In this document: piece by piece, positions 1 to 62,013 of the stretch
How positions within the stretch are numbered: position 1 is the first letter of the stretch
How the letters are laid out: every line of letters begins with the position of its first letter
Source: Phyllobates terribilis
Taxonomy: Eukaryota
Direction of reading: 5' to 3'
Length of the DNA: 64,000 nucleotides
Assembly (NCBI RefSeq): GCF_046119375.1
Contig: NW_027362762.1
Coordinates: 147,498,001-147,562,000 of the forward strand
Position numbers and translations under genes: made by a program
The notes under the pieces: model-generated
Told to the model about the DNA's origin: nothing
The model's input: only the letters and a program-made list of their open reading frames with translations
Databases searched by the model: none

Positions 1-999
1 GGGGCCCCCATTCAATGAACAGGCTGCACGGGCGGTAGGTCCGCCCCTGATGTCCACCCCTGCACAAAGCAGTGTGACTAATGTAAAAGACTGGAACGAT
101 ACTAATAAAGGGTAAATGATAACAGAACTGTTAGTTTGTGGATACTAGTCACACCGACCTCCAGAATAAAAATCCTAATGTTGTCCAGCTGCTTTTTAGA
201 GGGTACTTCAATGGATCACTTTCTGATTTGAGAATTGTAATTGCTATTAAGAATTTGTTTAGCCGGATTTCATCCCCAAGCTATGCATGTGCATCATTCA
301 CAGAAAAGTCCAGCAATACTTTGCATTTCTCAGGAACAGACTGACTATGTAGTGTTTGAATATATATGCAAAGTGCTTTAGTCGGGGGCAATCTCTCCTC
401 AAGCCTCTTGTCACTTAGTTGCAAACAAGTAGAAGATGATGAGTTTACCACTTTGTTGTAAAATCAAATCCTGGAACCACATCAGTGGGTGCTGAATCCT
501 GCTGGTGATCAGCAAACTATGAAATATATATTTTTTTTAAGCAAAACTATTAGTAATATCATTAAAAATGTATTAGTAATTCATTAAACAGCATTCTACA
601 TGAATAGAGAACTGAGATCACCTTGAGCTCTATTACCTGTCCGGTGATGCTTTCTCCTGCCTGACAGCTTATGTGCCGTGGTGTTGGGGCGAGGCTCTAG
701 CTGCGTTTTAAGATCGTTCTTTAAGCATGCCTAAATAATAAGGTGCTAGTTGCACCCTTGGTATGGCTGGGTAGTTCGGTGCACTTTTCCCACCTACTTG
801 TTTTTCATTTACTCTCCTCTGGCTCCTGTAAAACCAGTAATGTCAATCAAGGAAGAGGAGATTGTAAACAGCCCACATAAAGCATGTTTGTTTTTTGTTT
901 TTTTACACAAGCTTTTAGTTCAAAGTAGCCTAACAAAGGCATATTGTTTGTTTTTGGCAAAGTAGTAATTTGGTAAAGTAGCTGACGGTGCCCTTTTAA

Positions 1000-2689: not shown

Positions 2690-2705
2690 CTGACAGTCGG
2701 CTTAA

Positions 2706-5733: not shown

Positions 5734-5754
5734 AATCCATTGAGCAAGCCATAG

Positions 5755-12817: not shown

Positions 12818-12819
12818 TC

Positions 12820-13630: not shown

Positions 13631-13639
13631 GCTCCATGC

Positions 13640-16029: not shown

Positions 16030-16070
16030 TTTATATTCCTGCAGGTCTGTTTGTGAGGTGTCGGTGAAAG
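16030..16070 (+). promoter_or_regulatory. LTR TATA-like box and predicted TSS / self-primer
   Basis: TTTATAT at 16030; GTCGGTGAAA at 16060-16069 is the reverse complement of TTTCACCGAC (16486-16495) just after the 5' LTR. Confidence 0.7.
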
Positions 16071-16519
16071 CTTTTCATTCAGACTTACAGAGCGGATCGT
16101 GGTGTTTGGAGTTGCTGAGATAAGTGTATTTGGAAGTGTTATTTCCCTTTCCTCGCTTTATCATTTATCTCCTTTCCCGTTGGTGTTCCCTCTGTTGTAG
16201 TTGTGTTGAAGTTGTATGCAAGGTGGTTTTGGTTTTTCCCTTGTACTGTCTCGTTCGTCTAAATACTGTGTGTGGGCATATTATTGCTGGTTCCCAATTG
16301 TTGTGATCGGGGTCCTTCTCAGGACTAGATTACTGTGGTGCAGGGATCCTCAGGAGGTAGGGGTTACGCTGGCGGCCTGGACCTCTGTACCTTTAACAGT
16401 ACCTCCAGGATGAGGGATTAGTCAGGGCCCCAGCTTAGGGTCAGCTTAGGCCCCCTACCTCCAGTATTCTGTGACAGTGTGACATTTTCACCGACCAACT
16501 TAGTTTTTCTCCAGCTACC

Positions 16520-37100: not shown

Positions 37101-37155
37101 TCCCTCGGGGCCCCCATTCAATGAACAGGCTGCACGGGCGGTAGGTCCGCCCCTG
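34106..37155. mobile_element. hAT-like non-autonomous element containing an about 22-bp minisatellite (34190-34650) and a nested MITE
   Basis: 11-bp TIR CAGGGGCGGAC / GTCCGCCCCTG; TSD ATGTCCAT (34098-34105) / ATGTCCAC (37156-37163). Its right end is also bases 1-48 and 51721-51769. Confidence 0.85.
34891..36975. mobile_element. Minisatellite-bearing hAT-like MITE with 31-bp and about 33-bp arrays
   Basis: Ends CAGGGCCGGC / GCCAGCCCTA; perfect TSD CGGGGGCC (34883-34890, 36976-36983). Confidence 0.88.
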
Positions 37156-38720
37156 ATGTCCACCCCTGCACAAAGCAGTGTGACTAATGTAAAAGACTGG
37201 AACGATACTAATAAAGGGTAAATGATAACAGAACTGTTAGTTTGTGGATACTAGTCACTCCGACCTCCAGAATAAAAATCCTAATGTTGTCCAGCTGCTT
37301 TTTAGAGGGTACTTCAATGGATCACTTTCTGATTTGAGAATTGTAATTGCTATTAAGAATTTGTTTAGCCGGATTTCATCCCCAAGCTATGCATGTGCAT
37401 CATTCACAGAAAAGTCCAGCAATACTTTGCATTTCTCAGGAACAGACTGACTATGTAGTGTTTGAATATATATGCAAAATGCTTTAGTCGGGGGCAATCT
37501 CTCCTCAAGCCTCTTGTCACTTAGTTGCAAACAAGTAGAAGATGATGAGTTTACCACTTTGTTGTAAAATCAAATCCTGGAACCACATCAGTGGGTGCTG
37601 AATCCTGCTGGTGATCAGCAAACTATGAAATATATATATTTTTTAAGCAAAACTATTAGTAATATCATTAAAAATGTATTAGTAATTCATTAAACAGCAT
37701 TCTACATGAATAGAGAACTGAGATCACCTTGAGCTCTATTACCTGTCCAGTGATGCTTTCTCCTGCCTGACAGCTTATGTGCCGTGGTGTTGGGGCGAGG
37801 CTCTAGCTGCGTTTTAAGATCGTTCTTTAAGCATGCCTAAATAATAAGGTGCTAGTTGCACCCTTGGTATGGCTGGGTAGTTCGGTGCACTTTTCCCACC
37901 TACTTGTTTTTCATTTACTCTCCTCTGGCTCCTGTAAAACCAGTAATGTCAATCAAGGAAGAGGAGATTGTAAACAGCCCACATAAAGCATGTTTGTTTT
38001 TTGTTTTTTTACACAAGCTTTTAGTTCAAAGTAGCCTAACAAAGGCATATTGTTGGTTTTTGGCAAAGTAGTAATTTGGTAAAGTAGCTGACGGTGCCCT
38101 TTTAAAGGGAATGTGTCCACCCCCCTGGGCGATATCAGACCTCTCCTATGGACATACAGGTGATAGAAAAGTAAATCTATACTTACCTGTATGGCCATAG
38201 TAGGGGTCTGATTGCAGAGAAATCTGGTTTTATAAAGTCTGCTTTCCAGAGGCTTGGTGCCCGTGCGACGCCAAGCAAACCCCTCCAATCTGCTTACTAT
38301 TCCCCTAAATCGCCGCCTCTGTGCTAAATTACCATATCCCTCCCCCTCCCCTGCACGGCACAGGGTCCTGTGACTGCCCTGTGACAGGCCCTGCTCTGCC
38401 TACCCTGTATGGCCATAGTAGAGGTCTGATATAGAGATTCCCTTCAACCTCCACCCACAGCGGGCCAATAGTTGAACAGCTGTGTAACAAAGTGATGGGT
38501 TTTTAGCCCAAAAGGGAAGACTTTCAGATTGTTGTAACTTATTCTTAGCATAGTGCCCAAAGGCCTGATCATAATGGTTTGCTTAATGAAGTGACTGATT
38601 TGGAATCAGAGTAACTATCCAAGATGCTTCATTAAGAGAGCACACTGAAGGAAATGTGCACATGATGTCTTAAAATCGTGATCTTCTAGAAGGACAGGTA
38701 AGGGTCTCACTAAATGCTGA
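36815..38720 (+). repeat. Segmental duplication copy 2 (MITE right end + block A)
   Basis: Collinear with 1-1609 and 51419-53335. Confidence 0.95.
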
Positions 38721-41700
38721 AATGGCGGCCTGCTGTGCACTGGTGCCACAGAACCCAGAAGGGTGCATGGATGTACTTCTCCACAAGAGGCCCTCACACA
38801 TTCACACACCTCCACCCTACCACCTCAGACCAGCAGAGGGAGCCCGTTAGGGATATATAAAGGGAGGGTGGAGCCAGGCAGCTCAGTCAGAAGTTAGTTA
38901 GTCTCTCAGACACAGAGAGGGACAGAGCTCAGAGTTGAGCAGAGAGCGTGCTGACGCTCAGAGAGCAGCAAGCTGGCTGCTGTGCTTAGTCGAGCCAAGG
39001 CCTACAGCACGTGTGAAGGCCTAGTGAGGGCCCTGAGTGTGGCCGAAGGCGAGAGGAGAAGGAAGAAGTAGCGAGGGGGTAGAGGAGCATACCAGGCTCA
39101 CCCTGATATATATACCGGACACCGGGTCCGCGCCTACGGGGACCCTTTATACCAGTAGGGACCACCGGAACCCCTGGAGGACTACAGGTCCCAGGTTCAC
39201 CAAATGCTGATTGCAGTACTAGGGCTAGGAGTCACGGAGGCCCCAGCGACCAGGGAGAGTGATCTCCAAGAAAAGTCCCTACCACCAAGTCAGCAGGTGC
39301 AAAGAGAGACAGTAACCAAGCTAGGCCTAGCTCCAGGCAGGTCAGAAGCTTAGCGAGTAAAGCCACGGATCAGGAGGCCCTATACCCGCTCACTGGGGAG
39401 AGTCCAAAAGTGCGCCCTTCGTCCGGAGTACCCTGAACCGTGCCTGCACCATCACCAATAAAGGTACTGAAGCTTAGCCCCGTGTGAGTGTGCGTCTTTT
39501 TTCCGGGACCGTCCTGTCGTCTCTCCCCCGCATCCACCATCTATCCCTACACTGCCCTAGGGCTAGCTCTACCTGTGGAGAGCCATACTATCCCTGCTGC
39601 CGTAACACCAGCTCCAGAGGACTGCTCCGCAGCGGCGGCACCCTTTTGCCGCTTTCCACAGGTGGCGTCACGAACTTTCCAAATCCCCAATAGATAATTT
39701 CCCCTTTATACTGACCGCCCTGGGTCACGGACCGGGCCAGCCACCGAGATATACCCCACCGGCATATGCAGAGGCCCGGCTGCCGAGTACCCCACGGCCC
39801 AGGGGGCGCGTTAGCCTTGGCGTCACGAACAGAATTCTGTGCCCGTTGCCACTGGGTACTGTGCGCCTTAAAAGACTGTAATACTCACTGTGGTGAAGGT
39901 TTCCCGCCATTCCCGAGATTTCTCGCCATTGTCCGCCATCTTCCTGTCACCGTGCGGGAAGAAGAGGGGCGTAACCGCGGGAATCGGAGAGGCGTAAACG
40001 CTGGAAGCGCGCAAAGCCCAGGACACGCCCCGCCCCTGACGTCGAATCAGAAAGTGTCAGGTCCTGGAAGGAGCCCAGAGGACGCTCTGACGTCAGACAC
40101 GAGCGACGCAAGGTCCTGGAAGAAGACCGTCGCCCGCGGAGCTGCGGCCTACCTGATAAGCAGTGAAGAAGGAAGGCTCCAGTTCACTAGGGGGGCGCAA
40201 CCATGGCCGACGACCAGCGAGCCACCGGAGCACCGGCTAACGCTCCTGATGCCCAACCCGCGCCCGGCGCTGCACAGGCCGGAGCGGTTTCTCCACCAGC
40301 AGGGGTCATGACCCCATTGATACCCATGGCCCTGCAGTATATCCCTGGAGTGAAGTGGCTTCCCTAGTAAAATGGCAAACCAGACACCCTGTCTGGATTC
40401 AAGAGAAAAATATGTGGTGTACTAGACATGTATTCTATGACCGGTAAACAGAGAGCTGCTGTTGTGCTGGGACAATTGACTGGTGCTGCAGAGTGGGAAG
40501 TTGAAACCTGGCCAGCCGCAGACCAGGAATCAGTATCCATCATCTTTAAGAGACTGCAAACTGTGTTTGAAAACTGCACTGAGACGGATCTTCGGATGAG
40601 GTTCTACCACTGTGTCCAGAAACCTGAGGACAGTATCCGGGACTACGCCTGGCGCGTACAGGAAGCCCTGCGGGCCCTGAAACAGGTTAGTCCAGCCAGC
40701 ATGCAAAATGAAAATAAAATGCTGACGGATCAAGGCCCTGCCTTTGAAACCGAGCTGTTCAAAGAGTTTTGCCATTTGTACGGGTGTAAGAAGATCCGGA
40801 CTACACCGTACCACCCCCAAACCTATGGGTTATGTGAAAAGATGAATAACATAGTCATCGACCTGTTGAAGACCTTACCTCTCGAAGAAAGAAACCAATG
40901 GCCGGACAAACTACCTGACCTGGTAGATTTGTACAATCACATACCTGTGAGTTCCACCAATTGTACTCCAGCGTACCTCATGAGAGCAAGACCTGGAAAG
41001 TTGCCCATGGACCTGGAGCTTGGAGTGGTCGAGCCAGAAGCAGATATGTCCACTGAAGACTGGGATGCGACTTGACAGGAACAGTACAAGAGAGTACAAG
41101 CCTGTGTCGAAGACAGTCTAAGTAGGGTGAGAGATAAGCAGGAAGCACAGAACAACAAGAGTGCACCAGCTGAACCCTTGACACCTGGAGAAGTTGTGCT
41201 GAAACGAAAGAGAAGAAGCCACAAGCTTGACGACCAGTGGGAAAGGGAACCTTACACTGTGTTGAATTCCAGATTCGACGATAGGAAAATCTGCCTAATT
41301 AGCAAAGACGGAGAAAGAACAACTGCAACAGTATCAAGAGACCATCTGAAGTTGTGCCCAAGTCCGCTAAAGCCCCAGGAGGAAGTGCCTCTCACCATAC
41401 CGGAGGAGCCTAAAGAAGAAGTACTCCATACTGACTTAGGAGATTTCCCGGCAGATTGGCCTCAACTGGATGGAGCGGTAATAATACCTGTGCTACACTT
41501 CTACCAACAGCCAGAAGACTCTCCACTGCAAGTAAGACCTGTAAGTGCCCCGGAAGAGCCTGCTCAGGAAGAATCCCCGGAAGAAGGATCACCGGTAGAA
41601 GCAGAGCCAGTAGGCCCAGTAACCAGTGTATTTGCCTGTCCCGTAGAGAGGTTAAGGCAGTCTTGCAGTCCATCAACACATAGAGCGGAAAATAGCGCAA

Positions 41701-42760
41701 GCATCCACACTACATGCATTCCAGTACTACGTAGGTGTAACGGGTCTGGGAGGCGGAACCTCTGAGCTACTATACAAGGGGGCGGTCCTTGTAAGGGAGC
41801 GGGTGGCGACCAGGGAAGACGGGCAGGCAGTCACAGCAGGTGACCGGGACAGTCTCAGGGTGAACGGGCAGGAGGTCACGGCAAGTGACCGGGGCAGTCT
41901 CTGGATGAACAGGCTGGAGGTCACGGCAAGTGACCGGGGCAGTCTCTGGATGAACGGGCTGGAGGTCACGGCAAGTGACCGGGGCAGTCTCTGGATGAAC
42001 GGGCTGGAGGTCACGGCAAGTGACCGGGGCAGTCTCTGGGTAAAGGGTAGGTACGACCTGTGATGGCTGAACCTCCAGGTAGGCTAGCAGGCAGATGGAA
42101 GATGTGTGCTCCCAGGTGAGCAAGCGAGAGTCTCTGGATGAACGGGTGGTCACAGCATGTGACGGCGGATCCTCCAGGTAGGCAAACAGGCAGGTAGCGG
42201 AGGAGCGCTCCCAGGTGAGCGGGCAGGAGTCTCTGGAATAGCAGGTGGTCACAGCACGTGACGGCGGAGCCTCCAGGTAGGCAAGCAGGCAGGTAGCGGA
42301 GGAGCGCTCCCAGGTGAGCGGGCAAGAGTCTCTGGAATAGCAGATGGTCACAGCACGTGACGGCGGAGCCTCCAGGTAGGCTAGCAGGCAGGTAGCAGAT
42401 GTGCGCTCCCAGGTGAGCGGCCAAGCTGGTCCATAGACAGACTGACAGGAGTAGGAAGGCAGACCGTCGGACCTCAGGCTAGCAAGCAGGTAGCAGGAAT
42501 ATCAGGCAGGAAACAGACAGCAAACTGGCAGGACTCTGGCAGGAATCAGGCAGGTAACAGACAGCAAACTGGCAGGACTCTGGCAGGAATCAGGCAGGTA
42601 ACTGACAGGTAACTGGCAACGGGACCTGAGGGCTGAAGCAGAGTAGTGAACAGTGCAACAACATTGCTCGGGCACCTCCATTTTGGAGGAGGTGCCTTAT
42701 ATATGGTGAAGTCCTCCGGCCATTGGCCGGGAACTCCTTAGGACGGCGCGCGCGGCCCCT

Positions 42761-45700
42761 TTAAGAGGGAGGGAGCAAGCGCGCGCGTGCTCTAAGCACA
42801 GTGGCCGGGAAGGAGCGCGCACTGCCAGCAGAGCGGGAGGAGGACGCCGGGCTCGGAGCAGAGAGGTGAGGGGAACAGCGTCCCTGCCTAGCAGAGGGCA
42901 GGAACGCCGACGCTACAGTACCCCCCCCTTTAGGCCCCCCCTTTTTTAGGCCAGACAGAAATTTAGCTAGGATGAGAGGGGCATGGATGTTCTCCCGGGG
43001 CTCCCATGTTCTCTCCTCAGGACCAAACCCCTTCCAATCTACTAGAAAAAAGGTCTTCCCTCTTACCCTTTTGGTGGCCAGAATGTTCTCTACCTCAAAT
43101 TCGTTTTCAGCGGAAACCGGAGCAGGAGGCGTGCCTGTAGACTTGGAAAAAGAGTTAAGTACCACGGGTTTGAGGAGAGATACATGGAAGGAGTTAGGGA
43201 TCCGCAAATTGGCCGGGAGTTTCAATTTATAGGCCACCGGGTTGATCTGACTGATGACCTCCAGAGGACCGATGAACCGAGGCCCTAACTTATAGGAAGG
43301 AATCTTGAGCCGGACATACTTGGACGAGAGCCAGACCTTATCCCCAGGACGGAATTGAGGAGGATCCAGACGTTTTTTGTCAGCATGTCTTTTCATACGT
43401 TCGAATGACAGAAGGAGTGCGGACCGGGTACTCTCCCATATGGAGGAAAATTTGTTAACAAGAGATTCCGCAGCCGGATTGTCCACCGAGGTGGAGACGG
43501 GAAACGGGATCCGAGGATGCTGACCGAAGACTACAAAAAACGGGGATTTGGAGGAAGATTCGCTCTCGTGATTGTTGTACGAGAATTCAGCCCATGGCAG
43601 GAGATCCACCCAGTCAGAATGGTGGGCATTAATGAAGTGCCGGAGGTAACTGGTCAGGATCTGATTGATCCGCTCCACTTGACCATTAGACTGTGGGTGG
43701 TAAGCGGAGGAGAAGTCCAGGGTGACGTCTAGCAATTTACAAGTGGCTCTCCAGAAACGAGAAGTGAACTGTACCCCACGATCCGACACGATGTGACGGG
43801 GCAGGCCATGAAGACGGAAGATGTGGCGGATAAAGTCTTTAGCCAGCTCGGGTGCAGACGGGAGGCCTGGCAGGGGAATGAAGTGAGCCATCTTGGAAAA
43901 GCGGTCAGCGACCACCCAAATGACCGTACAATCGGCAGAGACGGGAAGATCAGTTATGAAGTCCATCGCTATATGCTGCCAGGGGGCAGCAGGTACTGGC
44001 AGAGGAAGGAGGCGACCGGCTGGCAGGTGTCTCGGAACTTTGTTGCGGGCGCAGGACACACAGGCAGAAACAAAGTCTATTACATCCTTGTGCAGGTTAG
44101 ACCACCAGTAGTGCCGGGTAATAAGCTGGAGGGTCTTTTTCTGACCGGCGTGGCCAGCTAGTTTAGACGAATGACCCCAGTGTAGGATCTTCTCCCGATC
44201 AGGTACCGATACGAACGTCTTACCGGGAGGGAGACGATTTAGACTCACGGGAGCCACCTGCATTACTCTGGCGGGATCGATGATATGTTTAGGTTCTTCC
44301 TCGAGGTCAGATACCAGAAAGGATCGGGACAAGGTGTCCGCTTTGATGTTCTTGTCAGCCGGGCGAAAATGTAGAACAAAATCAAAGCGAGCAAAAAACA
44401 AGGACCACCGGGCTTGGCGCGGGTTAAGTCTCTGGGCATGCTGGAGATAAGCCAAGTTCTTGTGGTCAGTGTAAATTATTACCGGATGAAGAGCCCCCTC
44501 GAGCAGGTAACGCCACTCCTCCAATGCCAGCTTGATGGCCAATAACTCTCGGTCTCCTATGGAATAATTGCGCTCAGAAGAGGAGAAGAGTTTGGAGAAG
44601 AAGCCGCAAGTTACCATCCTCCCGGAAGATGATTTTTGAGTAAGTACAGCTCCGGCTCCAGAGGAGGAGGCGTCAACCTCCAGGAAGAACTGCTTGTTGC
44701 CATCCGGACGATGCAGCACCGGGGCGGAAGAGAAGGCCTGTTTTAAGGAAAGAAAGGCCTCCTCTGCTTCGGACGGCCACTCCTTGGGATTAGTACCCTT
44801 ACGGGTGAGCGCGGAAATTGGGGCAGTCCGGGAAGAGAAGTGTGGTATGAAGAGGCGGTAGTAGTTGGCGAAGCCCAGGAACCGCTGAATGGCCTTCAAC
44901 CCCTCCGGTCGGGGCCATTTCTCGATGGCAGACAGTTTCTCTGGATCCATTCGTAGGCCGGTCTGAGAAATAATGTAGCCCAAAAACGGAAGCGAGGTCT
45001 GCTCAAAGAGGCACTTCTCATATTTAGCGAAGAGGTGATTCTGCCTGAGCCTGAGCAGGACCTGACGAACGTCCCTCCGGTGAGTCTGGAGATCCGGAGA
45101 GAAGACCAAGATGTTGTCCAGGTACACCACAACGCAGGAGTAGAGAAGGTCCCGGAAGATGTCATTGACCAACTCTTGAAAGACGGCAGGAGCGTTACAG
45201 AGACCAAAGGGCATTACCAGATATTCATAGTGGCCGTCCCGGGTGTTGAATGCAGTCTTCCATTCATCCCCTTGACGGATACGGACCAGGTTGTACGCCC
45301 CACGGAGGTCCAGTTTGGTGAAGACTCTAGCCCCCCTCAGGCGATCAAATAATTCTGGAATGAGCGGAAGGGGGTACTTATTCTTCACCGTGATCTGGTT
45401 AAGGCCTCTATAGTCTATACAGGGACGGAGAGAGCCGTCCTTCTTTTTTACGAAGAAGAAGCCTGCTCCCGCCGGGGAGGTAGATTTCCGGATGAATCCC
45501 CTGGCCAAATTCTCCTCAATATATTCGGACATCGACCGGGTCTCAGCAGCGGACAATGGGTAAATACGCCCACGGGGAGGAGTAGTACCGGGTAACAGGT
45601 CGATAGGACAGTCGTATGGTCTATGAGGGGGTAATGTCTCTGCCTCCTTTTTATTAAAGACATCAGCAAATGACCAATAGGGAATCGGAAGTCCAGGTAG

Positions 45701-46186
45701 ATTAGTTGGGGTAGGAGAAGGACGGACGGGATGAACAGGAACCAAACAAGTCTTATGACAGTCCTGTCCCCAGCGAAGGACTTCTCCGGTCTGCCAGTCA
45801 AGCACGGGTGCATGTCTCTGGAGCCAAGGTAGACCTAGTAAGAGGGCGTGAGAGAGTCCAGGCAGAACATGAAAAGAGATGCTCTCAGAATGCAGCATTC
45901 CCACCTGCAGAGTTATAGATTCGGTGATGAGTTGGATGGGACGTGGTAAGAGGCCCCCATCCACAGCAGCGACAGATAATGGTACAGCCAGAGGTTTGGT
46001 GGGAATGCGGTATTTTTCTACCAGGGACTGTGAAATAAGATTCCCGGCTGCTCCAGAGTCAAGTTGGGCTAGTTCGAAATAACGATTCTCCCCGCAGATA
46101 ATAGAGACTGACAGTAGCAGAGATGGAGAGGATTTATTCTTGTCTAGGTCGACCTCTCTGAGCGAACCTAGACACAGGCGTTTCCC
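42761..46186 (-). CDS. pol: Pol (protease, RT with YLDN, RNase H, integrase, chromodomain) reached by -1 frameshift
   Basis: -1 frame from GGGAAAC reads GKRLCLG...AQLDSGAAGNL into the 1067-aa ORF; FTKLDLRGAY; VDASSSGAGAVL; MDFITDL/SDRGVQF/GQVER; FLVDWKGFGPEERTWEP. Confidence 0.93.
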   Translation of the reverse strand, partial: GKRLCLGSLREVDLDKNKSSPSLLLSVSIICGENRYFELAQLDSGAAGNLISQSLVEKYRIPTKPLAVPLSVAAVDGGLLPRPIQLITESITLQVGMLHSESISFHVLPGLSHALLLGLPWLQRHAPVLDWQTGEVLRWGQDCHKTCLVPVHPVRPSPTPTNLPGLPIPYWSFADVFNKKEAETLPPHRPYDCPIDLLPGTTPPRGRIYPLSAAETRSMSEYIEENLARGFIRKSTSPAGAGFFFVKKKDGSLRPCIDYRGLNQITVKNKYPLPLIPELFDRLRGARVFTKLDLRGAYNLVRIRQGDEWKTAFNTRDGHYEYLVMPFGLCNAPAVFQELVNDIFRDLLYSCVVVYLDNILVFSPDLQTHRRDVRQVLLRLRQNHLFAKYEKCLFEQTSLPFLGYIISQTGLRMDPEKLSAIEKWPRPEGLKAIQRFLGFANYYRLFIPHFSSRTAPISALTRKGTNPKEWPSEAEEAFLSLKQAFSSAPVLHRPDGNKQFFLEVDASSSGAGAVLTQKSSSGRMVTCGFFSKLFSSSERNYSIGDRELLAIKLALEEWRYLLEGALHPVIIYTDHKNLAYLQHAQRLNPRQARWSLFFARFDFVLHFRPADKNIKADTLSRSFLVSDLEEEPKHIIDPARVMQVAPVSLNRLPPGKTFVSVPDREKILHWGHSSKLAGHAGQKKTLQLITRHYWWSNLHKDVIDFVSACVSCARNKVPRHLPAGRLLPLPVPAAPWQHIAMDFITDLPVSADCTVIWVVADRFSKMAHFIPLPGLPSAPELAKDFIRHIFRLHGLPRHIVSDRGVQFTSRFWRATCKLLDVTLDFSSAYHPQSNGQVERINQILTSYLRHFINAHHSDWVDLLPWAEFSYNNHESESSSKSPFFVVFGQHPRIPFPVSTSVDNPAAESLVNKFSSIWESTRSALLLSFERMKRHADKKRLDPPQFRPGDKVWLSSKYVRLKIPSYKLGPRFIGPLEVISQINPVAYKLKLPANLRIPNSFHVSLLKPVVLNSFSKSTGTPPAPVSAENEFEVENILATKRVRGKTFFLVDWKGFGPEERTWEPRENIHAPLILAKFLSGLKKGGPKGGGTVASAFLPSARQGRCSPHLSAPSPASSSRSAGSARSFPATVLRARARLLPPS

Positions 46187-47118
46187 GACCTCTCCGGGCA
46201 GGTACGGATCCGGTGCTCCTTACTGCCACAGTAGAAGCAGCTCCCTTCGGCACGGCGTAAGTCCTGACGGGTTTTGACCATCTTGGTCTGGTCGACCTGC
46301 ATAGGCTCAGGAGAGTGTACCTGGGGAGAAACGGAGGGAGTGACGGGTTTCTGAAAAGTAGGAGCTAGACGTGGAAACCTCCTCTCACGGTTGACCTCTT
46401 TGGCACGCTCCTGGAACCGTAGGTCAATCCGGGTGGCAAGAGTTATTAAGTCATCGAGAGTGGTAGGGATGTCCCGACCGGCGAGTTCATCTTTAATACG
46501 GCCGGACAGACCCTCCCAGAAGACAGATACCAGAGCGTCGTTATCCCAAGCCAGCTCCGAGGCAAGGGTACGGAACCGTATGGCATATTGGCCCACGGTG
46601 AGATTTCCCTGGTGGAGGCGTAGCAGAGATGATGCGGATGAGGTCTTCCGTCCGGGTTCGTCGAAGACTTTCCGGAAAGCCGTGAGAAAGGCAGGCAAGT
46701 CGGACACCAGGGGGTCTCCTCTCTCCCATAGAGGATTTAGCCAGGCCAGGGCCTCCCCGGTGAGATGGGACATGATGAAGGCAATTTTGGCCCGGTCGGA
46801 GTTAAACTGGTGGGACAGGAGTTCAAAGTGCAGGGTGCACTGATTTATGAAGCCCCGAGCCTGAGCGGAGTCGCCTCCGAAGCGAGGAGGTGCAGAAAGC
46901 CGGGGTCCGGGGTAGGATACCATGGTATTGGTGGGCAGCGGAGCTGCCGGGTTGCGAGTCATGGCACTGGCGGTGGTTGCTGGTGGGGCAGTCAGAGTGT
47001 CCAGGCGAGAATTGACATTCCGCAGGTGACCCAGGATGGACTCCTGTTGGGACCTCTGACGGGACAGTTCATGACAGAGGTCCGAGAGCGAGGGAGCTTG
47101 GGTGCCACCGGGTTCCAT
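46168..47118 (-). CDS. gag: Gag (316 aa) with CCHC knuckle
   Basis: PRFGGDSAQARGFINQC, EPMQVD, CFYCGSKEHRIRTC. Confidence 0.93.
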   Translation of the reverse strand: MEPGGTQAPSLSDLCHELSRQRSQQESILGHLRNVNSRLDTLTAPPATTASAMTRNPAAPLPTNTMVSYPGPRLSAPPRFGGDSAQARGFINQCTLHFELLSHQFNSDRAKIAFIMSHLTGEALAWLNPLWERGDPLVSDLPAFLTAFRKVFDEPGRKTSSASSLLRLHQGNLTVGQYAIRFRTLASELAWDNDALVSVFWEGLSGRIKDELAGRDIPTTLDDLITLATRIDLRFQERAKEVNRERRFPRLAPTFQKPVTPSVSPQVHSPEPMQVDQTKMVKTRQDLRRAEGSCFYCGSKEHRIRTCPERSGNACV

Positions 47119-48468
47119 GGCCCGAACAAACTGTAACGGGTCTGGGAGGCGGAACCTCTGAGCTACTATACAAGGGGGCGGTCCTTGTAAGGGAGCGGGT
47201 GGCGACCAGGGAAGACGGGCAGGCAGTCACAGCAGGTGACCGGGACAGTCTCAGGGTGAACGGGCAGGAGGTCACGGCAAGTGACCGGGGCAGTCTCTGG
47301 ATGAACAGGCTGGAGGTCACGGCAAGTGACCGGGGCAGTCTCTGGATGAACGGGCTGGAGGTCACGGCAAGTGACCGGGGCAGTCTCTGGATGAACGGGC
47401 TGGAGGTCACGGCAAGTGACCGGGGCAGTCTCTGGGTAAAGGGTAGGTATGACCTGTGATGGCTGAACCTCCAGGTAGGCTAGCAGGCAGATGGAAGATG
47501 TGTGCTCCCAGGTGAGCAAGCGAGAGTCTCTGGATGAACGGGTGGTCACAGCATGTGACGGCGGATCCTCCAGGTAGGCAAACAGGCAGGTAGCGGAGGA
47601 GCGCTCCCAGGTGAGCGGGCAGGAGTCTCTGGAATAGCAGGTGGTCACAGCACGTGACGGCGGAGCCTCCAGGTAGGCAAGCAGGCAGGTAGCGGAGGAG
47701 CGCTCCCAGGTGAGCGGGCAAGAGTCTCTGGAATAGCAGATGGTCACAGCACGTGACGGCGGAGCCTCCAGGTAGGCTAGCAGGCAGGTAGCAGATGTGC
47801 GCTCCCAGGTGAGCGGCCAAGCTAGTCCATAGACAGACTGACAGGAGTAGGAAGGCAGACCGTCGGACCTCAGGCTAGCAAGCAGGTAGCAGGAATATCA
47901 GGCAGGAAACAGACAGCAAACTGGCAGGACTCTGGCAGGAATCAGGCAGGTAACAGACAGCAAACTGGCAGGACTCTGGCAGGAATCAGGCAGGTAACTG
48001 ACAGGTAACTGGCAACGGGACCTGAGGGCTGAAGCAGAGTAGTGAACAGTGCAACAACATTGCTCGGGCACCTCCATTTTGGAGGGGGTGCCTTATATAT
48101 GGTGAAGTCCTCCGGCCATTGGCCGGGGACTCCTTAGGACGGCGCGCGCGGCCCCTTTAAGAGGGAGGGAGCGCGCGCGCGCCCTAAGCACAGTGGCCGG
48201 GAAGGAGCGCGCGCTGCCAGCAGAGCGGGAGGAGGACGCCGGGCTCGGAGCAGAGAGGTGAGGGGAACAGCGTCCCTGCCTAGCAGAGGGCAGGGACGCC
48301 GACGCTACAGTAGGTCATCGCGTAGCACAAAAGGCCAGACCCCTGTCAGGTATAAGGAGTAAGTTAAAAATACCTGCAGTATAAATAGTTACCCAGTAGG
48401 GTATTGCATAATGTTTATTGTATAAACTGAAATATATGTGTTTATTTAGTTACCCGTAAGGGTATATA

Positions 48469-50918
48469 CAGTTATATGAAAAAGTTTGGGTACCCCTATT
48501 AATCTTAAGCTTAATGTTTTATAAAAATTGGTGTTTTTGCAACAGCTATTTCAGTTTGATATATGTAATAACTGTTGGACACAGTAATGTTTCTGCCTTG
48601 AAATGAGGTTTATTGTACTAACAGAAAATGTGCAATCTGCATACAAACAAAATTTGACAGGTGGGCACCTCACCAGAAAAGTGACATTAATATTTAGTAG
48701 ATCCTCCTTTTGCAAAAATAACAGCCTCTAGTCGCTTCCTGTAGCTTTTAATGAGTTCCTGGATCCTGGACGAAGGTATTTTTTTTTTTTCAAATTCAAG
48801 TTTTTTTTATTTTTTGTGTTGAAAAAGTACAAGATAATACAATATACATAGTAAAAGGGGTAGCGTAACTATAAATCTATGCATAACTACAGTACATTGG
48901 GGGGATACAGGGAGGGTTTTCCATCAATATCCAGATCAAGCATGTATTTTTCCATATGAAAGATAGAGAGAGAGGGAGCGGACCACGGCAGACCACCAAT
49001 CAATAGAGTGTGATTATGATCATTGTTGTGACGACATCCCGGATAACTTTAGTTGGGGGCTAGATGGTAGGCGTCAGAGTTTTGGAAATCCATCCAATCC
49101 CTCCAAATCACACAGTATCTATCAACATCAGCCGGTGAGATGGCAATCAGATGCTCCATCCTATTAAGGAGAGAAATCTCCGCAAACCATTCCTCCACAG
49201 TGGGTGGGTCTCTAATTTTCCAGTGTCGTGGAATGACATTGTTAGCCGCCTGTATTAGGTAGCCTATTGATGACCTTTTATAACTACGTTTACTTATTGG
49301 TAACATTGATAAAAGGAGGGCTTCTGGCGTATTAGGGATAGTCAAACCAGTTATTTTCTCAATCATGGGAACCACCTTTGCCCAAAATGCATTTATTATA
49401 GGGCACCCCCAACATATGTGTGACATTGTCCCTTCCCCCTCCCCACATCTCCAACATCTGTCTGAGACCACTGGGTACCATCTATGAAGGACTGCTGGTA
49501 CCCGGTACCATCTAGAGATAATTTTGAAGGAGGTTTCCTGAGCTTTGGACCCTATTGAGGTTTATGTGTTAGGAAGAAGGATGAAGGTATTTTTGACCAT
49601 TCCTCTTTAAAAAACAATTCCAGTTCAGTTAAGTTTGATGGTCGCCGAGCATGTACAGCCCTCTTCAAATGATCCCACAGATGTTCAATGATATTCAGGT
49701 CTGGGGACTGGGATGGCCATTCCAGAACATTGTAATTGTTCCTCTGCACGAATGCCTGAGTAGATTTGGAGCGGTGTTTTGGATCATTGTCTTGCTGAAA
49801 GATCCATCTCCTGCGTAACTTCAATTTTATCACTGATTTTTGAACATTATTGTCAAGAATCTGCTGATACTGAGTGGAATCCATGAGTCGCTCAACTTTA
49901 ACAAGATTCCCGATACCGGCATTGGCCACACAGCCCCAAAGCATGATGGAACCTCCACCAAATTTTACTGTGGGTAGCAAGTGTTTTTCTTGGAATGCTG
50001 TGTTTTTTTTGCCGCCATGCATATCGCCTTTTTGTATGACCAAACAACTCAATCTTGGTTTCATCAGTCCACAGGACCTTCTTCGAAAAAGAAATTGGCT
50101 TCTCCAAATGTGCTTTTGCATACCTCAGCCGACTCTGTTTGTGGCGTGCTTGCAGAAACAGCTTCTTTCGCATCACTCTCCCATACGGCTTCTCCTTGTG
50201 CAAAGTGTGTTGTATAGTTGACCGATGCACAGTGACACCATCTGCTGCAAGTTGATGCTGCAGCTCTCTGGAGGTGGTCTGAGGATTGTCCTTGACTGAT
50301 CTTACCATTCTTCTTCTCTGCCTTTCTGATGTTTTTCTTGGCCTGCCACTTCTGGCCTTAACAAGATCTGTCCCTGTGTTCTTCCATTTCCTTACTATGT
50401 TCCTCACAGTGGAAACTGACAGGTTAAATCTCTGAGACAGCTTTTTGTATCCTTCCCCTGAACAACTATGTTGAATAATCTTTGTTTTCAGATCATTTGA
50501 CAGTTGTTTTGAGGAGCCCATGATGCCACTCTTCAGAGGAGATTCAAACAGGAGAACAACTTGCAAGTGGCCACTTTAAGTAGCTTTTCTCATGATTGCA
50601 TACACCTGGCTCTGAAGTTCAAAGTTCAATGAGGTTACAAAACCAAAAAAAGTGCTTTATTAAGTTAGTATAAAAGTAGGTAGGAGTATTTAAAACAAGA
50701 AAATAAGGGTGCCCATACTTATGCACCTGTCAAATTTTGTTTGAATGCAGATTGCACATTTTCTGTTAGTACAATAAACCTCATTTCAAGGCAGAAACAT
50801 TACTGTGTCCAACAGTTATTACATATATCAAACTGAAATAGCTGTTGCAAAAACACCAATTTTAAGAAAACATTAAGCTTAAGATTAATAGGGGTGCCCA
50901 AACTTTTTCATATAACTG
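48469..50918 (-). mobile_element. Tc1 (DD34E) element with about 210-bp IR/DR-type TIRs, disrupted by L1
   Basis: TA-flanked CAGTTATATGAAAAAGTTTGGG ends; long inverted repeats; ATG 50521 MGSSKQLS...; WTDETK, QQDND-34aa-E; one frameshift in an A-run near 50005. Confidence 0.95.
48784..49578 (-). mobile_element. 5'-truncated L1-clade LINE
   Basis: Poly(A) tail; 16-bp TSD GGA(C/T)GAAGGTATTTTT; CWRCGEGEGTMSHICWGCP ORF2 C-terminal Cys domain. Confidence 0.9.
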
Positions 50919-52873
50919 TATAAAGGACTCGTAGGCTGAGGACTGTGAGCAGCCCAAGAACTGTTCATGTACATAGTTGCACTCCCTGGAGTGCTCCTTA
51001 AGTGACCACTGAACAAAAACCCGTTTGGCGTGGCTGAAGACCTGGTCCAGCACCTAGATCACCTATGCCCTGCAGCCACACCCAGGGCCTACGTTGAGGG
51101 TTTTCGGATGGGTCCCTCATGCTGCTCATCTTCACCAGTGAGATGGACACCAGTTAATGGATCTCACTGAGACTTTAAGAGGAGTGTTTTATATAAGAAA
51201 ATGTATTAATGTTATTATTGTATTATAATGTTACCTGTAACGTTCAAGAAAAGTGCCTCCCATAAAGGGAAGAAATGTTACTGTTTAACCTGTTTTGAAA
51301 AAAATTCTTCAGTCCAGGAGTACCGAGTTTTACTAGGGGGGGATGTGGCGCCCTGCTGTGCACTGGTGCCACAGAACCCAGAAGGGTGCATGGATGGACT
51401 TCTCCACAAGAGGCCCTCTTGTGCCGGGTGCCAGGGCCCTGAGCAAGCGGGGGGGGAGCGGGCGCTGACACCGCTCTACTCCGCTCACGGGTCCCATAGC
51501 ACGCGGGGTGCCCGATGGTGAGGGCCCCCGCCTGCTCAGGGCCCCGGCATTTGCCCGGGTGCTGACGCCGGCCCTACGGGGGCCCCAAGAGGAGACGCAC
51601 AAGAGGGGGGCCCCAACGGGGCTCCGAGGGGGCCCCGACCGGCCGGGCCCCATACTGGAGTCAGGACAGTCATGCCCTGATGGCGGCCCTGCTGGAGGCT
51701 GGAGGGGCCCCCTCTGCCTCGGGGCCCCCATTCAATGAACAGGCTGCACGGGCGGTAGGTCCGCCCCTGATGTCCACCCCTGCACAAAGCAGTGTGACTA
51801 ATGTAAAAGACTGGAACGATACTAATAAAGGGTAAATGATAACAGAACTGTTAGTTTGTGGATACTAGTCACACCGACCTCCAGAATAAAAATCCTAATG
51901 TTGTCCAGCTGCTTTTTAGAGGGTACTTCAATGGATCACTTTCTGATTTGAGAATTGTAATTGCTATTAAGAATTTGTTTAGCCGGATTTCATCCCCAAG
52001 CTATGCATGTGCATCATTCACAGAAAAGTCCAGCAATACTTTGCACTTCTCAGGAACAGACTGACTATGTAGTGTTTGAATATATATGCAAAGTGCTTTA
52101 GTCGGGGGCAATCTCTCCTCAAGCCTCTTGTCACTTAGTTGCAAACAAGTAGAAGATGATGAGTTTACCACTTTGTTGTAAAATCAAATCCTGGAACCAC
52201 ATCAGTGGGTGCTGAATCCTGCTGGTGATCAGCAAACTATGAAATATATATTTTTTTTTTAAGCAAAACTATTAGTAATATCATTAAAAATGTATTAGTA
52301 ATTCATTAAACAGCATTCTACATGAATAGAGAACTGAGATCACCTTGAGCTCTATTACCTGTCCGGTGATGCTTTCTCCTGCCTGACAGCTTATGTGCCG
52401 TGGTGTTGGGGCGAGGCTCTAGCTGCGTTTTAAGATCTTTCTTTAAGCATGCCTAAATAATAAGGTGCTAGTTGCACCCTTGGTATGGCTGGGTAGTTCG
52501 GTGCACTTTTCCCACCTACTTGTTTTTCATTTACTCTCCTCTGGCTCCTGTAAAACCAGTAATGTCAATCAAGGAAGAGGAGATTGTAAACAGCCCACAT
52601 AAAGCATGTTTGTTTTTTGTTTTTTTACACAAGCTTTTAGTTCAAAGTAGCCTAACAAAGGCATATTGTTGGTTTTTGGCAAAGTAGTAATTTGGTTTTA
52701 TAAAGTCTGCTTTCCAGAGGCTTGGTGTCTGGAAAGCAAACCCTTCCAATCTGCTTACTATTCCCCTAAATCGCCGCCTCTGTGCTAAATTACCATATCC
52801 CCTCCCCTGCACGGCACAGGGTCCTGTGACTGCCCTGTGACAGGCCCTGCTCTGCCTACCCTGTATGGCCATA

Positions 52874-53266
52874 CCTACAAAAGACAAAAATATATCTCAT
52901 ACCCTACCATCATTATATATAAATGTAAAGCAAAGTTGCATAATAAATATAGGGTACTTAGTGAACTATTTTTGATCAAAAAAAAGTATACAAGCCGTCC
53001 CACCAGCGGCAAGGTGACCCTAAATTGGGACGGTACCTATACTGCCTATATTAAAACCCTTACTGTATATCAAAGTTGAAGTAATGCATATAAAAGGGTA
53101 GACAAATAGGACCGGGTCCCAACTCCAGACCACCTAGGCCCGTGGTAAGCTACATATATACTGATCAAAAATAGTTCACTAAGTACCCTATATTAATTAT
53201 GCAACTTTGCTTTACATTTATATATAATGATGGTAGGGTATGAGATATATTTTTGTCTTTTGAAGG
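52874..53266. repeat. Copy-3-specific insertion with about 100-bp inverted arms
   Basis: 52878-52978 versus 53162-53262 inverted, one mismatch seen; absent from copies 1 and 2. Confidence 0.85.
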
Positions 53267-53335
53267 AAATGTGCACATGATGTCTTAAAATCGTGATCTT
53301 CTAGAAGGACAGGTAAGGGTCTCACTAAATGCTGA

Positions 53336-54415
53336 TATGGCGGCCTGCTGTGCACTGGTGCCACAGAACCCAGAAGGGTGCATGGATGTAGTTCTCCACA
53401 AGAGGCCCTCACACATTCACACACCTCCACCCTACCACCTCAGACCAGCAGAGGGAGCCCGTTAGGGATATATAAAGGGAGGGTGGAGCCAAGCAGCTCA
53501 GTGAGAAGTTAGTTAGTCTCTCAGACACAGAGAGGGACAGAGCTCAGAGTTGAGCAGAGAGCGTGCTGACGCTCAGAGAGCAGCGAAGAGGCAGCAAGCT
53601 GGCTGCTGTGCTTAGGCAAGCCAAGGCCTACAGCACGTGTGAGGGCCCTGAGTGTGGCCGAAGGCGAGAGGAGAAGGAAGAAGTAGCGAGGGGGCAGAGG
53701 AGCATACCAGGCTCACCCCGATATATATACCGGACACCGGGTCCGCACCTACGGGGACCCTTTATACCCAGTAGTGACCACCGGAACCCCTGGAGGACTA
53801 CAGGTCCCAGGTTCACCAAATGCTGGGCTAGGAGTCACGGAGGCCCCAGCGACCAGGGAGAGTAATCTCCAAGAAAAGTCCCTACCACCAAGTCAGCAGG
53901 TGCAAAGAGAGACAGTAACCAAGCTAGGCCTAGCTCCAGGCAGGTCAGAAGCTTAGCGAGTAAAGCCACGGATCAGGAGTCCTATACCCGCTCACTGGGG
54001 AGAGTCCAAAAGTGCACCCTTCGTCCGGAGTACCCTGAACCGTGCCTGCACCATCACCAGTAAAGGTACTGAAGCTTACCCCCGTGTGAGTGTCCGTCTT
54101 TCCTCCGGGACCGTCCTGCCGTCTCTCCCCTGCATCCACCATCTACCCCTACACTGCCATGGGGCTAGCTCTACCTGTGGAGAGCCATACTATCCTTGCT
54201 GCCGTAACACCGGCTCCAGAGGACTGCTCCGCAGCGGCGGCACCCTTTTGCCGCATTCCACAGGTGGCGTCACAAACTTTCCAAATCCCCTATATATAAT
54301 TTCCCCTTTATACTGACCGCCCTGGGTCACGGACCGGGCCAGCCACCGTGATATCCCCCACCGGCATACGCAGAGGCCTGGCTGCCGAGGACCCCACGGC
54401 CCAGGGGTCGCGTCA
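53336..54415 (+). mobile_element. Solo LTR (1080 bp), duplicate of 1610-2689
   Basis: CTGA TSD at 53332-53335 and 54416-54419. Confidence 0.9.
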
Positions 54416-57314
54416 CTGACAGTCGGCTTAAAGGGAACCTGTCACCAGGTTTTTACCATGAGGCAAGACCACCACCTTTCAGGCCTGATATACAGCATTT
54501 TTTAATGCTGTATATATGCCCCCAACCCGGCCTACAAGACCATGTTTTATTATACTCGCCTGTGGGGCGGTCTGGTTCAAGGGGTGACGCTAGTCTTTTT
54601 CCGGCGCCTACCTTCCTTTGATGCCGTCCTTTTTGCTTCGTGTGGATGACGCGTCCCTATGTCATCCAGTCTCCCCCCCGGCATTGCACTCCTGCGCAGG
54701 CGAACTTCTCTGCCTTGTCGGGGGCAGAGCAAAGTACTGCAGTACACATGCCCCAGGAAAGGTCAGGTTAAGTGTCATCAGTGTTTGGTCAGTGTCACTT
54801 TTCACCATCAGTTTCACATGATAAATGAATGACATGGCTTCTATGCTTTGCAATGTTAATCATGGACAACACACAGTGTACAGTACACTAATATCATGCG
54901 TGTGCTGTGATTCTCACAGACCCATACACTTGTACTTTTCCTCTATGAAGCCAGTTAAAAAACAAAAGCACATCACTGATTTTTGCATGGACACAGTCTG
55001 CAAAACACAGACATGTGAACAGCTCCATAAACTATAATTCATATGTATTTTATCCATGAAACTCACAGAACAGAGGGATCTGAATGAGGCCTAAAGGATA
55101 GTATACTGAAGGTTTATGTCATAACCAGAGACTGGTTTAAATTGGATTTCTACAATATTCTTATATAAAAATGTATTGATTTATTCTTGGATTGTCCATT
55201 AAAAAGAATTATTGCAGAAGGTACAAAAAATTATTAGTTACAAAGTGATTGTCCATTTGTCCATAATTAGCTTAATAGTTGAGATTCACCCATCTTTTCC
55301 TGGGATCCTGGCTGGTAGATTGCGTTTGTCTGTGTGCAGCACGTGTGTCAAGATGACACCATGTGTCCGTTGGGCCTACATCAGCAGCTGGTTTACACAC
55401 AGACCTCGTCCTGTGGAATGGCAAGAGACCCCCCAGTCTCTAAAATGGGCTTTTATAGCACCTGTCATTCCGCATATGGTAGTGAACTAAAAATACACAC
55501 ACAAATAGCGCATGTCATCTAGAAACGATGGCTGATGCAATCTGTATGGTACAGAATAAAGAATAAAATGAATATCCATAATTAATATTTAACACAATGA
55601 AATGAACATCAAAATCAGGTTTGTCAACAATTTTTTTTTATTTCCTATTTTCATTCCTATTACAAAACTTCTGTCCTGTCATAAATGTTCTATTGTACCA
55701 ACACTGCCCTGAAAAGTGCCGGCAGGATTTGCCTTCTTGGTAAAGTCTCTGTCCCTGCAGACTTGGAGATCTCCAGCATTACTCCATGCAGCCATGAGGA
55801 ACTTCTCTCTTTACTCCTTGGGTTTCCGTTGTCCTAGCAGGAAGTGGGCGACGTTCTCGTACATCACAAGGGTGGTACAGCAGGCGGGGTCACAAGGAGG
55901 ATGTTGGGGACAATTCTCTCATAGAAGCTGTGTAAAACATTTTCCTTTTAAGAAAGAAGAAACACAACTATTAACTCTTGTTTTCATCTACCACTAGGTC
56001 GGTGATAACTTGGTGGGGTGAGGGGGGGGGGCACAAGTTTGGGTAAATACGGGCTATACCTATTTCTCAGAAGTTGTAAGGGAATATATCTTTCTAGGCT
56101 TTATCTTGAGTCCATTTTCCTTGTTGCTGATTCTCAGACACCGAGCCTGGAAAAAATAAAGTTTTAACAAATATAACAAACTTTTAAATTGGTTTTTGAA
56201 ATTAAAATCTATAGGCGGCCAGCGCAGTGCACTACATTCGTTTGTGGGACAGAACATGTCGTTAAAGGGTCTTTCTCATCAGTGCATTCCCAGTCCATAT
56301 GCTTTATTAGAGCAGATGTCAGCAGATAATGGACAACCCCCCCCACAGGAATCCCTCCTACCATTTAAGTCATGACTACGTACCATTGCAAACAGCTGAA
56401 GAAATCTGAGGCGGACTATATACAAGAAGAGTTTTCTCATACTTTTATGCCATATCCCTAGAAGATTCCATAAGTGTCTGATAGGCGCAGATCCCAGATT
56501 TGAGACCCGCATCTGTCTCCAGACCTGGGGAACTATGAATAGAGAGATAGCAATTCTGTTTTGTGGAGGTTCCAAAAACTATCCGACGACTCGGCCTTGT
56601 GTTCGGTTATTTTTATAGACCTCGACTAGAGCGGCAGGGTACATACGAAACCAATGCTCCATCCAATTCCTCTTGAAGCTTTTATGTGGCAGATTCAAGA
56701 CCCCTGTGCTATTGATTGGAGGGTGTCTACATGGTTGAACACCCATACTAGTCTAATGTGTTTGAGATGGACAATCCTCTTAAGGAAAGTTCAGAGGAGA
56801 ATACCTACTACAAAACAGCTGGTTGTGTCGGATGTGGTTTTTTGCGCCACTTGGTTTGTTGTCTCATAAGACTATGTTTAAAGTTCTTTATGGTTTGTTC
56901 ATGTTGAGGCTTTGTGACTTTCGTCTGTACCGTACTGTTCCTTTATCATTTCTTTAGAAAAACATTCCATGCTGTTTGATGCAGAACTGGTGCTACTCCT
57001 CTTCATGTTAAGGCATCATTCTACCAATGTGATCGCTGGTCTGATATAACTCGGGATCATTGTTAGGATGCAGGATTTATTTCAGTTAGCTCTCTACTGG
57101 GGTCCTACTAGTGCAGGCATTGAGAACGAAGTACAAAATCAGCAGGCAAATGAGTAGTCAGAAACAAGCAGAGGTCAGGGCAGGCGGCAATGCAAAAACA
57201 TAGTCGGAAACAAGCAGAGGTCAGGGCAGGCGGCAGTACAAAAACATAGTCGGAAACAAGCAGAGGTAACGGCAGGCGGCAGTGAAAAAACATAATCCAT
57301 TGAGCAAGCCATAG

Positions 57315-61854: not shown

Positions 61855-62013
61855 TAGATATTGTCAGCTCCTTCCAGGAATGTCACTTCCCGGTAACAAG
61901 GATGGCCCATGATGCACACTGTCCAGACCATTGCGGTCTTCTGGATTATTTCATCTAGTTTTAGAATAAATATTGTATTTTGACCTGAACCAATAAATGG
62001 AAAATCTGTTTTA

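What the first reader, a model, noticed from the sequence alone, without database searches (positions are those of the whole stretch)
47120..48099. Self-priming signature, element 2, with a different sequence and the same geometry
Minus strand: TATATAA starts at 48099; exactly 30 nt later GCCCGAGCAA (48069-48060) can pair over 10 bp (one G:U) with TTGTTCGGGC (47129-47120), 2 nt after the LTR end. The primer/PBS pair is unrelated in sequence to that of element 1 but has the same spacing, which amounts to natural covariation supporting self-priming in two families.
Basis: partly seen in the sequence, partly recalled or inferred. Interest (0 to 1): 0.7.

Follow-up and report, generated by a model that had tools for sequence, protein, structure and literature searches.

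The report
Self-priming sushi-type retrotransposon
This jumping gene has, 30 letters behind its TATA box, a 10-letter stretch that matches the site where DNA copying starts, and related families in the same genome keep the match with different letters, so the group likely starts copying with the front end of its own RNA, a trick already described for this group.

Summary
Observation confirmed at the stated coordinates. The stretch lies in a full-length chromodomain Ty3/gypsy element of the Tf1/sushi type (48309-41736, minus strand, target duplication CCTAC). A duplex this good at TATA+27..33 arose in 1 of 2000 shuffled LTRs. In the same genome 44 of 46 TSD-confirmed chromodomain elements pass a blind TATA+27..33/PBS pairing test, against 0 of 16 other gypsy elements, all with a TGG, tRNA-type PBS. 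Ten representatives keep 100 of 100 Watson-Crick pairs while 8 of 10 positions vary. Two corrections: the primers of elements 1 and 2 are not unrelated (6 of 10 letters shared), and the G:U is a rare copy-level substitution (57 of 16,652 junctions), not a family trait. This copy's RT active-site motif is not intact. The transcription start was not testable. Self-priming is proven for Tf1 and was already inferred for vertebrate Tf1/sushi elements, so this is a new member of a known kind with unusually clean comparative support. The scan has noted self-priming signatures before in other genomes, in BEL/Pao and copia elements.

The parts
47132..48309 (-). 5' LTR, 1178 nt, TGTAG...TTACA
   Evidence: self-alignment and boundary comparison
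48310..48314 (-). Target-site duplication CCTAC, 5' copy
48118..48122 (-). CCAAT motif 53 nt before the predicted start
   Evidence: function inferred
48092..48099 (-). TATA box TATATAAG
   Evidence: only perfect consensus match in the LTR; an AT-rich block at -29..-24 recurs in 9 of 9 representatives
48060..48069 (-). Predicted self-primer GCCCGAGCAA (predicted RNA +1..+10, T|G start context)
   Evidence: start site not mapped
47215..48014 (-). Tandem arrays (44, 99 and 45 nt units) filling the ~930-nt loop between primer and PBS
   Evidence: primer-to-LTR-end distance 517-1112 nt in 59 of 60 family copies with a locatable primer
47151..47156 (-). GGTTCC, possible U5 arm of a U5-leader helix with GGAACC at 47116-47111 (over the gag start)
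   Evidence: seen in the sequence; not above shuffles for this element, 86 of 500
47120..47129 (-). Primer-binding site TTGTTCGGGC, 2 nt after the LTR, no TGG; position 47126 carries a rare letter that gives the G:U
46168..47118 (-). gag ORF, 316 aa (Retrotrans_gag, Ty3_capsid, DUF4939; best PDB match PEG10 capsid domain)
46180..46186 (-). Slippery heptamer GGGAAAC followed by a hairpin; pol lies in the -1 frame
   Evidence: frameshifting inferred
42761..46219 (-). pol ORF, 1152 aa: protease, RT, RNase H, integrase, Tf2-1-like SH3, chromodomain; RT YxDD motif not intact (about residues 366-369)
42921..42931 (-). Polypurine tract, 3 nt before the 3' LTR
41736..42917 (-). 3' LTR, 1182 nt; differs from the 5' LTR by 7 substitutions and 2 short indels
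41731..41735 (-). Target-site duplication CCTAC, 3' copy
16060..16070 (+). Element 1 predicted self-primer GTCGGTGAAAG, 30 nt behind TTTATATT (16030)
16485..16495 (+). Element 1 PBS TTTTCACCGAC, directly after its 5' LTR (15856-16484)

Best explanation
This is a Tf1/sushi-type chromovirus LTR retrotransposon whose PBS is complementary to the stretch 30 nt behind its TATA box, so its family likely primes reverse transcription with the first 10-11 bases of its own RNA instead of a tRNA. Shown: element anatomy, the complementarity, its fixed place behind an AT-rich box, its compensated change across families, its absence from other gypsy elements. Inferred from Tf1/Tf2: RNA polymerase II starts at the G at 48069; the 5' end folds back over a ~930-nt loop onto the PBS; the RT/RNase H cuts behind the duplex and frees a 3'-OH; minus-strand strong-stop DNA is made and jumps to the 3' LTR. 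This copy itself is probably not autonomous (RT motif not intact) and its G:U is a substitution that likely arose after insertion.
For: Domains and order typical of chromoviruses; best PDB matches Ty3 Gag-Pol and PEG10. Position-constrained chance 1 of 2000. Blind test: 44 of 46 chromodomain elements against 0 of 16 controls, and 44 of 1600 with shuffled PBS. TGG within 5 nt of the LTR: 0 of 45 against 16 of 16. 100 of 100 Watson-Crick pairs over 10 representatives, 8 of 10 positions variable, permutation mean 59.8, max 94. Aligned on the primer's first base, 9 of 9 representatives are A/T at -29, -27, -26 and -25, 8 of 9 have T at -1, 9 of 9 G at +1. The TATA-primer distance stays fixed while the primer-PBS distance varies 517-1112 nt. 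The self-complementary families form one clade (100/100) whose RTs are as little as about 50-60% identical. Mechanism described for Tf1/Tf2 and stated as common to the Tf1/sushi group (PMC10085805, PMC6317226, PMC4600332, PMC5341516).
Against: No start site, cleavage or cDNA was observed. Folding the whole predicted leader puts 0 of 10 primer:PBS pairs in the minimum-energy structure of this element, and the duplex appears in only 4 of 10 representatives (nested folding cannot show a pseudoknotted 'pretzel', but this is still not support). The flanking U5-leader helix beats shuffles (at most 5 of 500) in 4 of 10 representatives and not in this element (86 of 500), and 2 of 4 controls score 7 and 9 of 500. 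One family (L148-L151) has a perfect 11-bp match but only a weak TTAA box and fails the blind test in 4 of 4 copies. No poly(A) hexamer among 12 tested lies in this LTR, so R is undefined. The sample is not random and 28 of the 46 elements share the PBS type of this family; representatives are kin, so the permutation count is not a probability.
Confidence: 0.9

Rival explanations
1. The duplex is real and selected but structural: it closes the 5' leader for packaging, dimerisation or control of gag translation (the AUG lies 2 nt behind the PBS), while priming uses something else.
For: The gag AUG sits directly behind the PBS and can pair with U5 in several families; no priming was observed here.
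Against: The partner always begins at the predicted +1 and the paired site always ends 11-12 nt after the LTR, exactly where a primer must sit; no TGG PBS exists to take a tRNA (0 of 45); the same layout primes in Tf1/Tf2.
Confidence: 0.06
2. The PBS takes a host tRNA fragment or other small RNA, and the LTR match is secondary.
For: Half-tRNA priming is known in some copia lineages (PMC6317226). The host tRNA set was not searched.
Against: At least nine different PBS sequences each match their own LTR at one fixed place; in the 9x9 cross table only 3 of 72 foreign pairs score 10 or more, 2 of them between families with the same primer.
Confidence: 0.03
3. Chance complementarity in a GC-rich LTR.
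For: A duplex this good occurs somewhere in 59 of 2000 shuffled LTRs; one control element scored 9.0 at another place.
Against: 1 of 2000 at the right place; 44 of 46 against 0 of 16.
Confidence: 0.01

Closest known systems
Tf1 and Tf2 of Schizosaccharomyces pombe (self-primed Ty3/gypsy chromoviruses)
   Same: PBS just behind the 5' LTR complementary to the RNA's 5' end; no tRNA PBS; chromodomain integrase; 5-bp TSD (PMC10085805 section 28 part 1 and passages, PMC5341516 passages). An 11-nt primer cut by RNase H is recalled, and implied by reference titles seen.
   Different: Tf1/Tf2 have a single ORF; this element has gag and pol in the -1 frame with a GGGAAAC slippery site. The primer-PBS loop here is about 930 nt of tandem repeats. 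Priming is shown by experiment for Tf1, only predicted here.
[quoted passage not shown]
   Same: Vertebrate-type chromovirus anatomy; LTR ends TGTAG...GTTACA fit the Sushi end motifs TGTYANR / CNTNACA loosely (PMC3601003 passages); self-primers and the 'pretzel' were described for this group by Butler et al. 2001, as cited in PMC6317226 and PMC10085805 (the paper itself was not held).
   Different: No reference sequence of sushi-ichi was available, so membership of the clade was not tested on a tree with named elements. The Sushi LTR model has a clear AATAAA near the 3' end; this LTR has none.
PEG10/SIRH genes (domesticated sushi-ichi relatives)
   Same: Gag best matches the PEG10 capsid domain (7LGA, E 1.2e-07) and DUF4939; the GGGAAAC slippery site is the one recalled for PEG10.
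   Different: PEG10 is a host gene without LTRs (recalled); this is a mobile family with at least 16,652 LTR-PBS junctions.

Membership tests
Ty3/gypsy chromovirus | LTRs with TG...CA ends, TSD and PPT | tested here: met
Ty3/gypsy chromovirus | Pol order PR-RT-RH-IN | tested here: met
   best PDB match Ty3-G Gag-Pol E 6.4e-135
Ty3/gypsy chromovirus | Chromodomain at the integrase C-terminus | tested here: met
   PF00385 E 4.1e-11 at pol 1041-1087
Tf1/sushi group | No tRNA-type (TGG) PBS | tested here: met
   0 of 45 chromodomain elements, 16 of 16 controls have TGG; host tRNA interiors not searched
Tf1/sushi group | At least 10 nt just behind the LTR complementary to a stretch in the LTR (criterion used in PMC6317226) | tested here: met
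   10 bp with one G:U here; 10 Watson-Crick pairs in the family's common form
Tf1/sushi group | The complementary stretch is the 5' end of the RNA | not testable with these tools
   Only assembled contigs were served, which cannot show starts; TATA at -30 and T|G context are indirect
Tf1/sushi group | Two flanking duplexes ('pretzel') | tested here: inconclusive
   U5-leader helix above shuffles in 4 of 10 representatives, not in this element; local fold z -0.2 here, -2.4 to -4.2 in three others
Tf1/sushi group | RT/RNase H cleavage of the RNA and extension from the freed end | not testable with these tools
   needs biochemistry or RNA-end data
Tf1/sushi group | RT clade with Tf1/sushi-ichi references | tested here: inconclusive
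   Self-complementary families form one clade apart from the non-chromodomain gypsy controls, but no named reference was on the tree
tRNA-primed gypsy elements | PBS starting with TGG | tested here: not met

The most novel reading that the evidence does not exclude
A whole radiation of self-priming chromoviruses has flooded this 10.6-Gb genome (at least 16,652 LTR-PBS junctions for this one family) and has changed primer and PBS together many times, because the self-primer is copied into the new PBS during plus-strand synthesis; priming works across a loop that stretches freely from about 0.4 to 1.1 kb, and independence from tRNA lets these elements avoid silencing by tRNA fragments, which would help explain their success over tRNA-primed relatives.
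Probability: 0.25. Interest if true: 0.5.

Novelty: new member of a known kind. Interest (0 to 1): 0.22.

Why it matters
Self-priming is proven in fission yeast and, in the papers seen here, only inferred for vertebrate elements. This genome gives a clean comparative test: many families, each with its own primer letters, a fixed TATA-to-primer distance and a matched negative control. It makes a sharp prediction of the start site (48069 here, 16060 for element 1) that one cap-mapping experiment can check. It also shows that a ~1-kb, length-variable loop between primer and PBS is tolerated. It does not change what is known about the mechanism.

Tried and rejected
Start-site mapping from public runs: no RNA holder listed; four runs laid were contigs only and show no starts; no evidence either way on expression. 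Idea that the G:U marks an active sub-lineage whose PBS is corrected back from the primer: it arose because 5 of 25 copies in the first tree had the rare letter, but these came from a search whose query carried it; genome-wide it is 57 of 16,652 (0.34%), in line with 9 of the first 100 listed junctions having some single change over 11 places; 40 further rare-letter copies scatter over the family tree and 0 of the 39 with a locatable primer show the compensating change. Small clusters of rare-letter copies remain, so a minor sub-lineage is not excluded. Whole-leader folding did not recover the duplex for this element. Rfam: 0 matches at E<=1 over 41500-48500; no tRNA gene in the window. Retrotrans_gag search returned mostly plant-like elements on small contigs, not used in the counts. 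[quoted passage not shown] A search for 'self-priming' + 'chromovirus' + 'Xenopus' found 0 papers; this does not show absence from print, since most subscription papers are not searched and supplements were not read.

Full report
Observation. Comparing the two LTR copies fixes the 5' LTR at 48309-47132 and the 3' LTR at 42917-41736, with the target duplication CCTAC on both sides and a purine tract 3 nt before the 3' LTR. The PBS therefore begins 2 nt after the LTR. The duplex is 9 Watson-Crick pairs and one G:U, -16.4 kcal/mol. Alone it is modest: 59 of 2000 dinucleotide-shuffled LTRs hold an equal duplex somewhere, but only 1 of 2000 at TATA+27..33.

What the element is. Gag (47118-46168) matches Retrotrans_gag, Ty3_capsid and DUF4939; pol (46219-42761) holds protease, RT, RNase H, integrase, a Tf2-1-like SH3 domain and a chromodomain. 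Best solved relatives are Ty3 Gag-Pol and the PEG10 capsid domain. Pol lies in the -1 frame behind GGGAAAC (46186) and a hairpin; frameshifting is inferred. The LTRs differ by 7 substitutions and 2 short indels, so the insertion is young but not fresh. The RT YxDD motif is not intact in this copy or in its duplicate L167, so it probably cannot copy itself. Element 1 (15856-21299, +) is a second chromodomain element with identical LTRs and one 1418-aa ORF, 62% identical in RT.

Survey of the own genome. I fetched 140 stretches of 9-10 kb around hits to Ty3_capsid, DUF4939, SH3_Tf2-1, Chromo, Integrase_H2C2, PNMA and the junction of this element (fetched in 24-26, 31, 33, 34, 37). With elements 1 and 2 that is 142; 102 gave an LTR pair, 40 were dropped (5 no RT, 22 no LTR pair, 13 no clear LTR end). 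Counts use the 62 with a confirmed TSD: 46 with a chromodomain, 16 without. The sample is chosen, not random, and 28 of the 46 share this family's PBS type. A blind test (any TATA-like 8-mer with at most 2 mismatches; primer 27-33 nt later; at least 9 of 10 paired with the 10-mer ending 11-12 nt behind the LTR) passes 44 of 46 chromodomain elements and 0 of 16 controls; the two failures are a mis-called junction (L109) and a copy with a changed PBS (L186); shuffled PBSs pass 44 of 1600 times. TGG follows the LTR in 0 of 45 chromodomain elements (L109 left out) and 16 of 16 controls.

Covariation. Ten representatives (L072 standing for this family; L097 and L148 lack an automatically confirmed TSD) have nine different 10-nt primers, for example GCCCGAGCAA, GCCTGTGCAA, GCGCTCAGAT, GCGCTCTGAT, GTCGGTGAAA, GCCTGAGTAT, GCTAGAGTAT, GCTTGTGTAT, GCTTCTGAAT. 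All 100 pairs are Watson-Crick; 8 of 10 positions vary; reassigning PBSs gives a mean of 59.8 and never 100 in 20,000 tries. Kinship inflates such counts, but the RT tree shows the families as separate branches of one clade, 50-84% identical between most. Aligned on the primer's first base, nine representatives show an A/T block at -29..-24, T at -1 in 8 and G at +1 in 9. Eight of the nine RT clusters near this element show the pair; one (L071/L200) could not be resolved. The primers of elements 1 and 2 share 6 of 10 letters, so they are homologous with four compensated changes, not unrelated.

The G:U. The family's common PBS pairs fully. The exact junction with this copy's letter occurs 57 times among 16,652 junctions; 91 of the first 100 listed have the common form and 9 have some single change. 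L167, 77 kb away, is a duplicate of the same insertion (same TSD and flanks, one shared 5'-LTR-only change) and has the common letter. Forty further copies with the rare letter scatter over the tree and none of the 39 with a locatable primer has the compensating change. Contigs of 4 of 4 public runs laid, from four coded organisms, show the common letter at 47126. The wobble is best read as decay after insertion.

Results against. The duplex is absent from the minimum-energy fold of this element's 990-nt leader and present in 4 of 10 representatives. The flanking helices of the Tf1 'pretzel' are only partly seen: a U5-leader helix over or near the gag AUG beats shuffles in 4 of 10 representatives, not here (86 of 500), and 2 of 4 controls also score well. 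The L148 family has a perfect 11-bp match behind only a TTAA box. No poly(A) hexamer was found in this LTR. The start site could not be examined.

Mechanism. By analogy with Tf1/Tf2: transcription starts at 48069, the first 10-11 bases pair with the PBS, the element's RT/RNase H cuts the RNA behind the duplex, and the freed end primes minus-strand DNA (PMC5341516, passages; PMC10085805, passages and section 28 part 1). All these steps are inferred here. Since about half of Tf1 cDNA keeps a PBS copy at its 3' end (PMC11042837, passages), a changed primer could be copied straight into the new PBS; covariation may then reflect templating as well as selection. That is inference, and either way it needs self-priming. 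The loop between primer and PBS is mostly tandem repeats and varies from 517 to 1112 nt in this family and about 380-930 nt among representatives, while the TATA-primer distance does not move.

Comparison with what is known. [quoted passage not shown] PMC3601003, PMC4340606, PMC7472051 and PMC2864245 were seen as passages only; the link to tRNA-fragment silencing comes from the abstract start of PMC7472051 and is my inference for these elements. The primary papers were not held, and no supplements were read. Six searches showed no genome-wide covariation test in a vertebrate, but they cover only open papers.

Verdict. Real, well supported, and expected for this class of element. New member of a known kind; interest 0.22.

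Noticed in passing
G000 small contigs C3000-C8300, e.g. L001-L030, L117-L120: The best Retrotrans_gag and SH3_Tf2-1 hits lie only on small contigs and look plant-like (Athila-type gag by recall; a separate RT branch): possible plant DNA in the assembly.
   Followed up: partly
L167 = G000:C2:147614937-147623936: A second copy of the same insertion with the same TSD and ~99% identical flanks, 77 kb from the window's copy: segmental duplication or a haplotype assembled twice.
   Followed up: partly
window 15856-21299: Element 1 has identical LTRs, and all 150 scored genome hits to a 166-aa gag stretch are 100% identical: a very recent burst. It is inserted at the edge of a 39-nt tandem array (21300-23390).
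   Followed up: partly
window 47156-47111 and L084, L090, L097, L141, L148: U5 can pair with the stretch around the gag AUG, and a second U5 stretch can pair with the 5' half of the PBS, giving a long hairpin that would compete with the self-primer; reminiscent of retroviral U5:AUG pairing (recalled).
   Followed up: partly
window 47132-48309: No AATAAA or any of 11 variants in this LTR, nor 9 tested hexamers in element 1's; where these transcripts end is unexplained.
   Followed up: no
window 48161-48155: A second AT-rich motif (CTTAAAG) 62 nt upstream of the TATA box could give an alternative start that would not expose the primer; Tf2 is regulated by start-site choice (PMC5341516).
   Followed up: no
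window 49049-50575: Tc1/mariner-type transposase in pieces on the minus strand (HTH_Tnp_Tc3_2, DDE_3); related fragment at 7715-8176.
   Followed up: no
window 1-9381, 36815-39811, 51419-62013, 48305-49646, 62652-64000: Several kb-long direct duplications at 94-99% identity: the window is a patchwork of segmental repeats; 31-nt satellite arrays at about 12690-14800 and 34940-36560.
   Followed up: no
window 39715-41765: Element 2 sits in or beside a decayed ORF cluster on the + strand with weak PNMA and integrase matches.
   Followed up: no
L079, L180: LTR followed directly by another LTR start or a doubled LTR, suggesting tandem insertions like those described for Tf1/Tf2.
   Followed up: no
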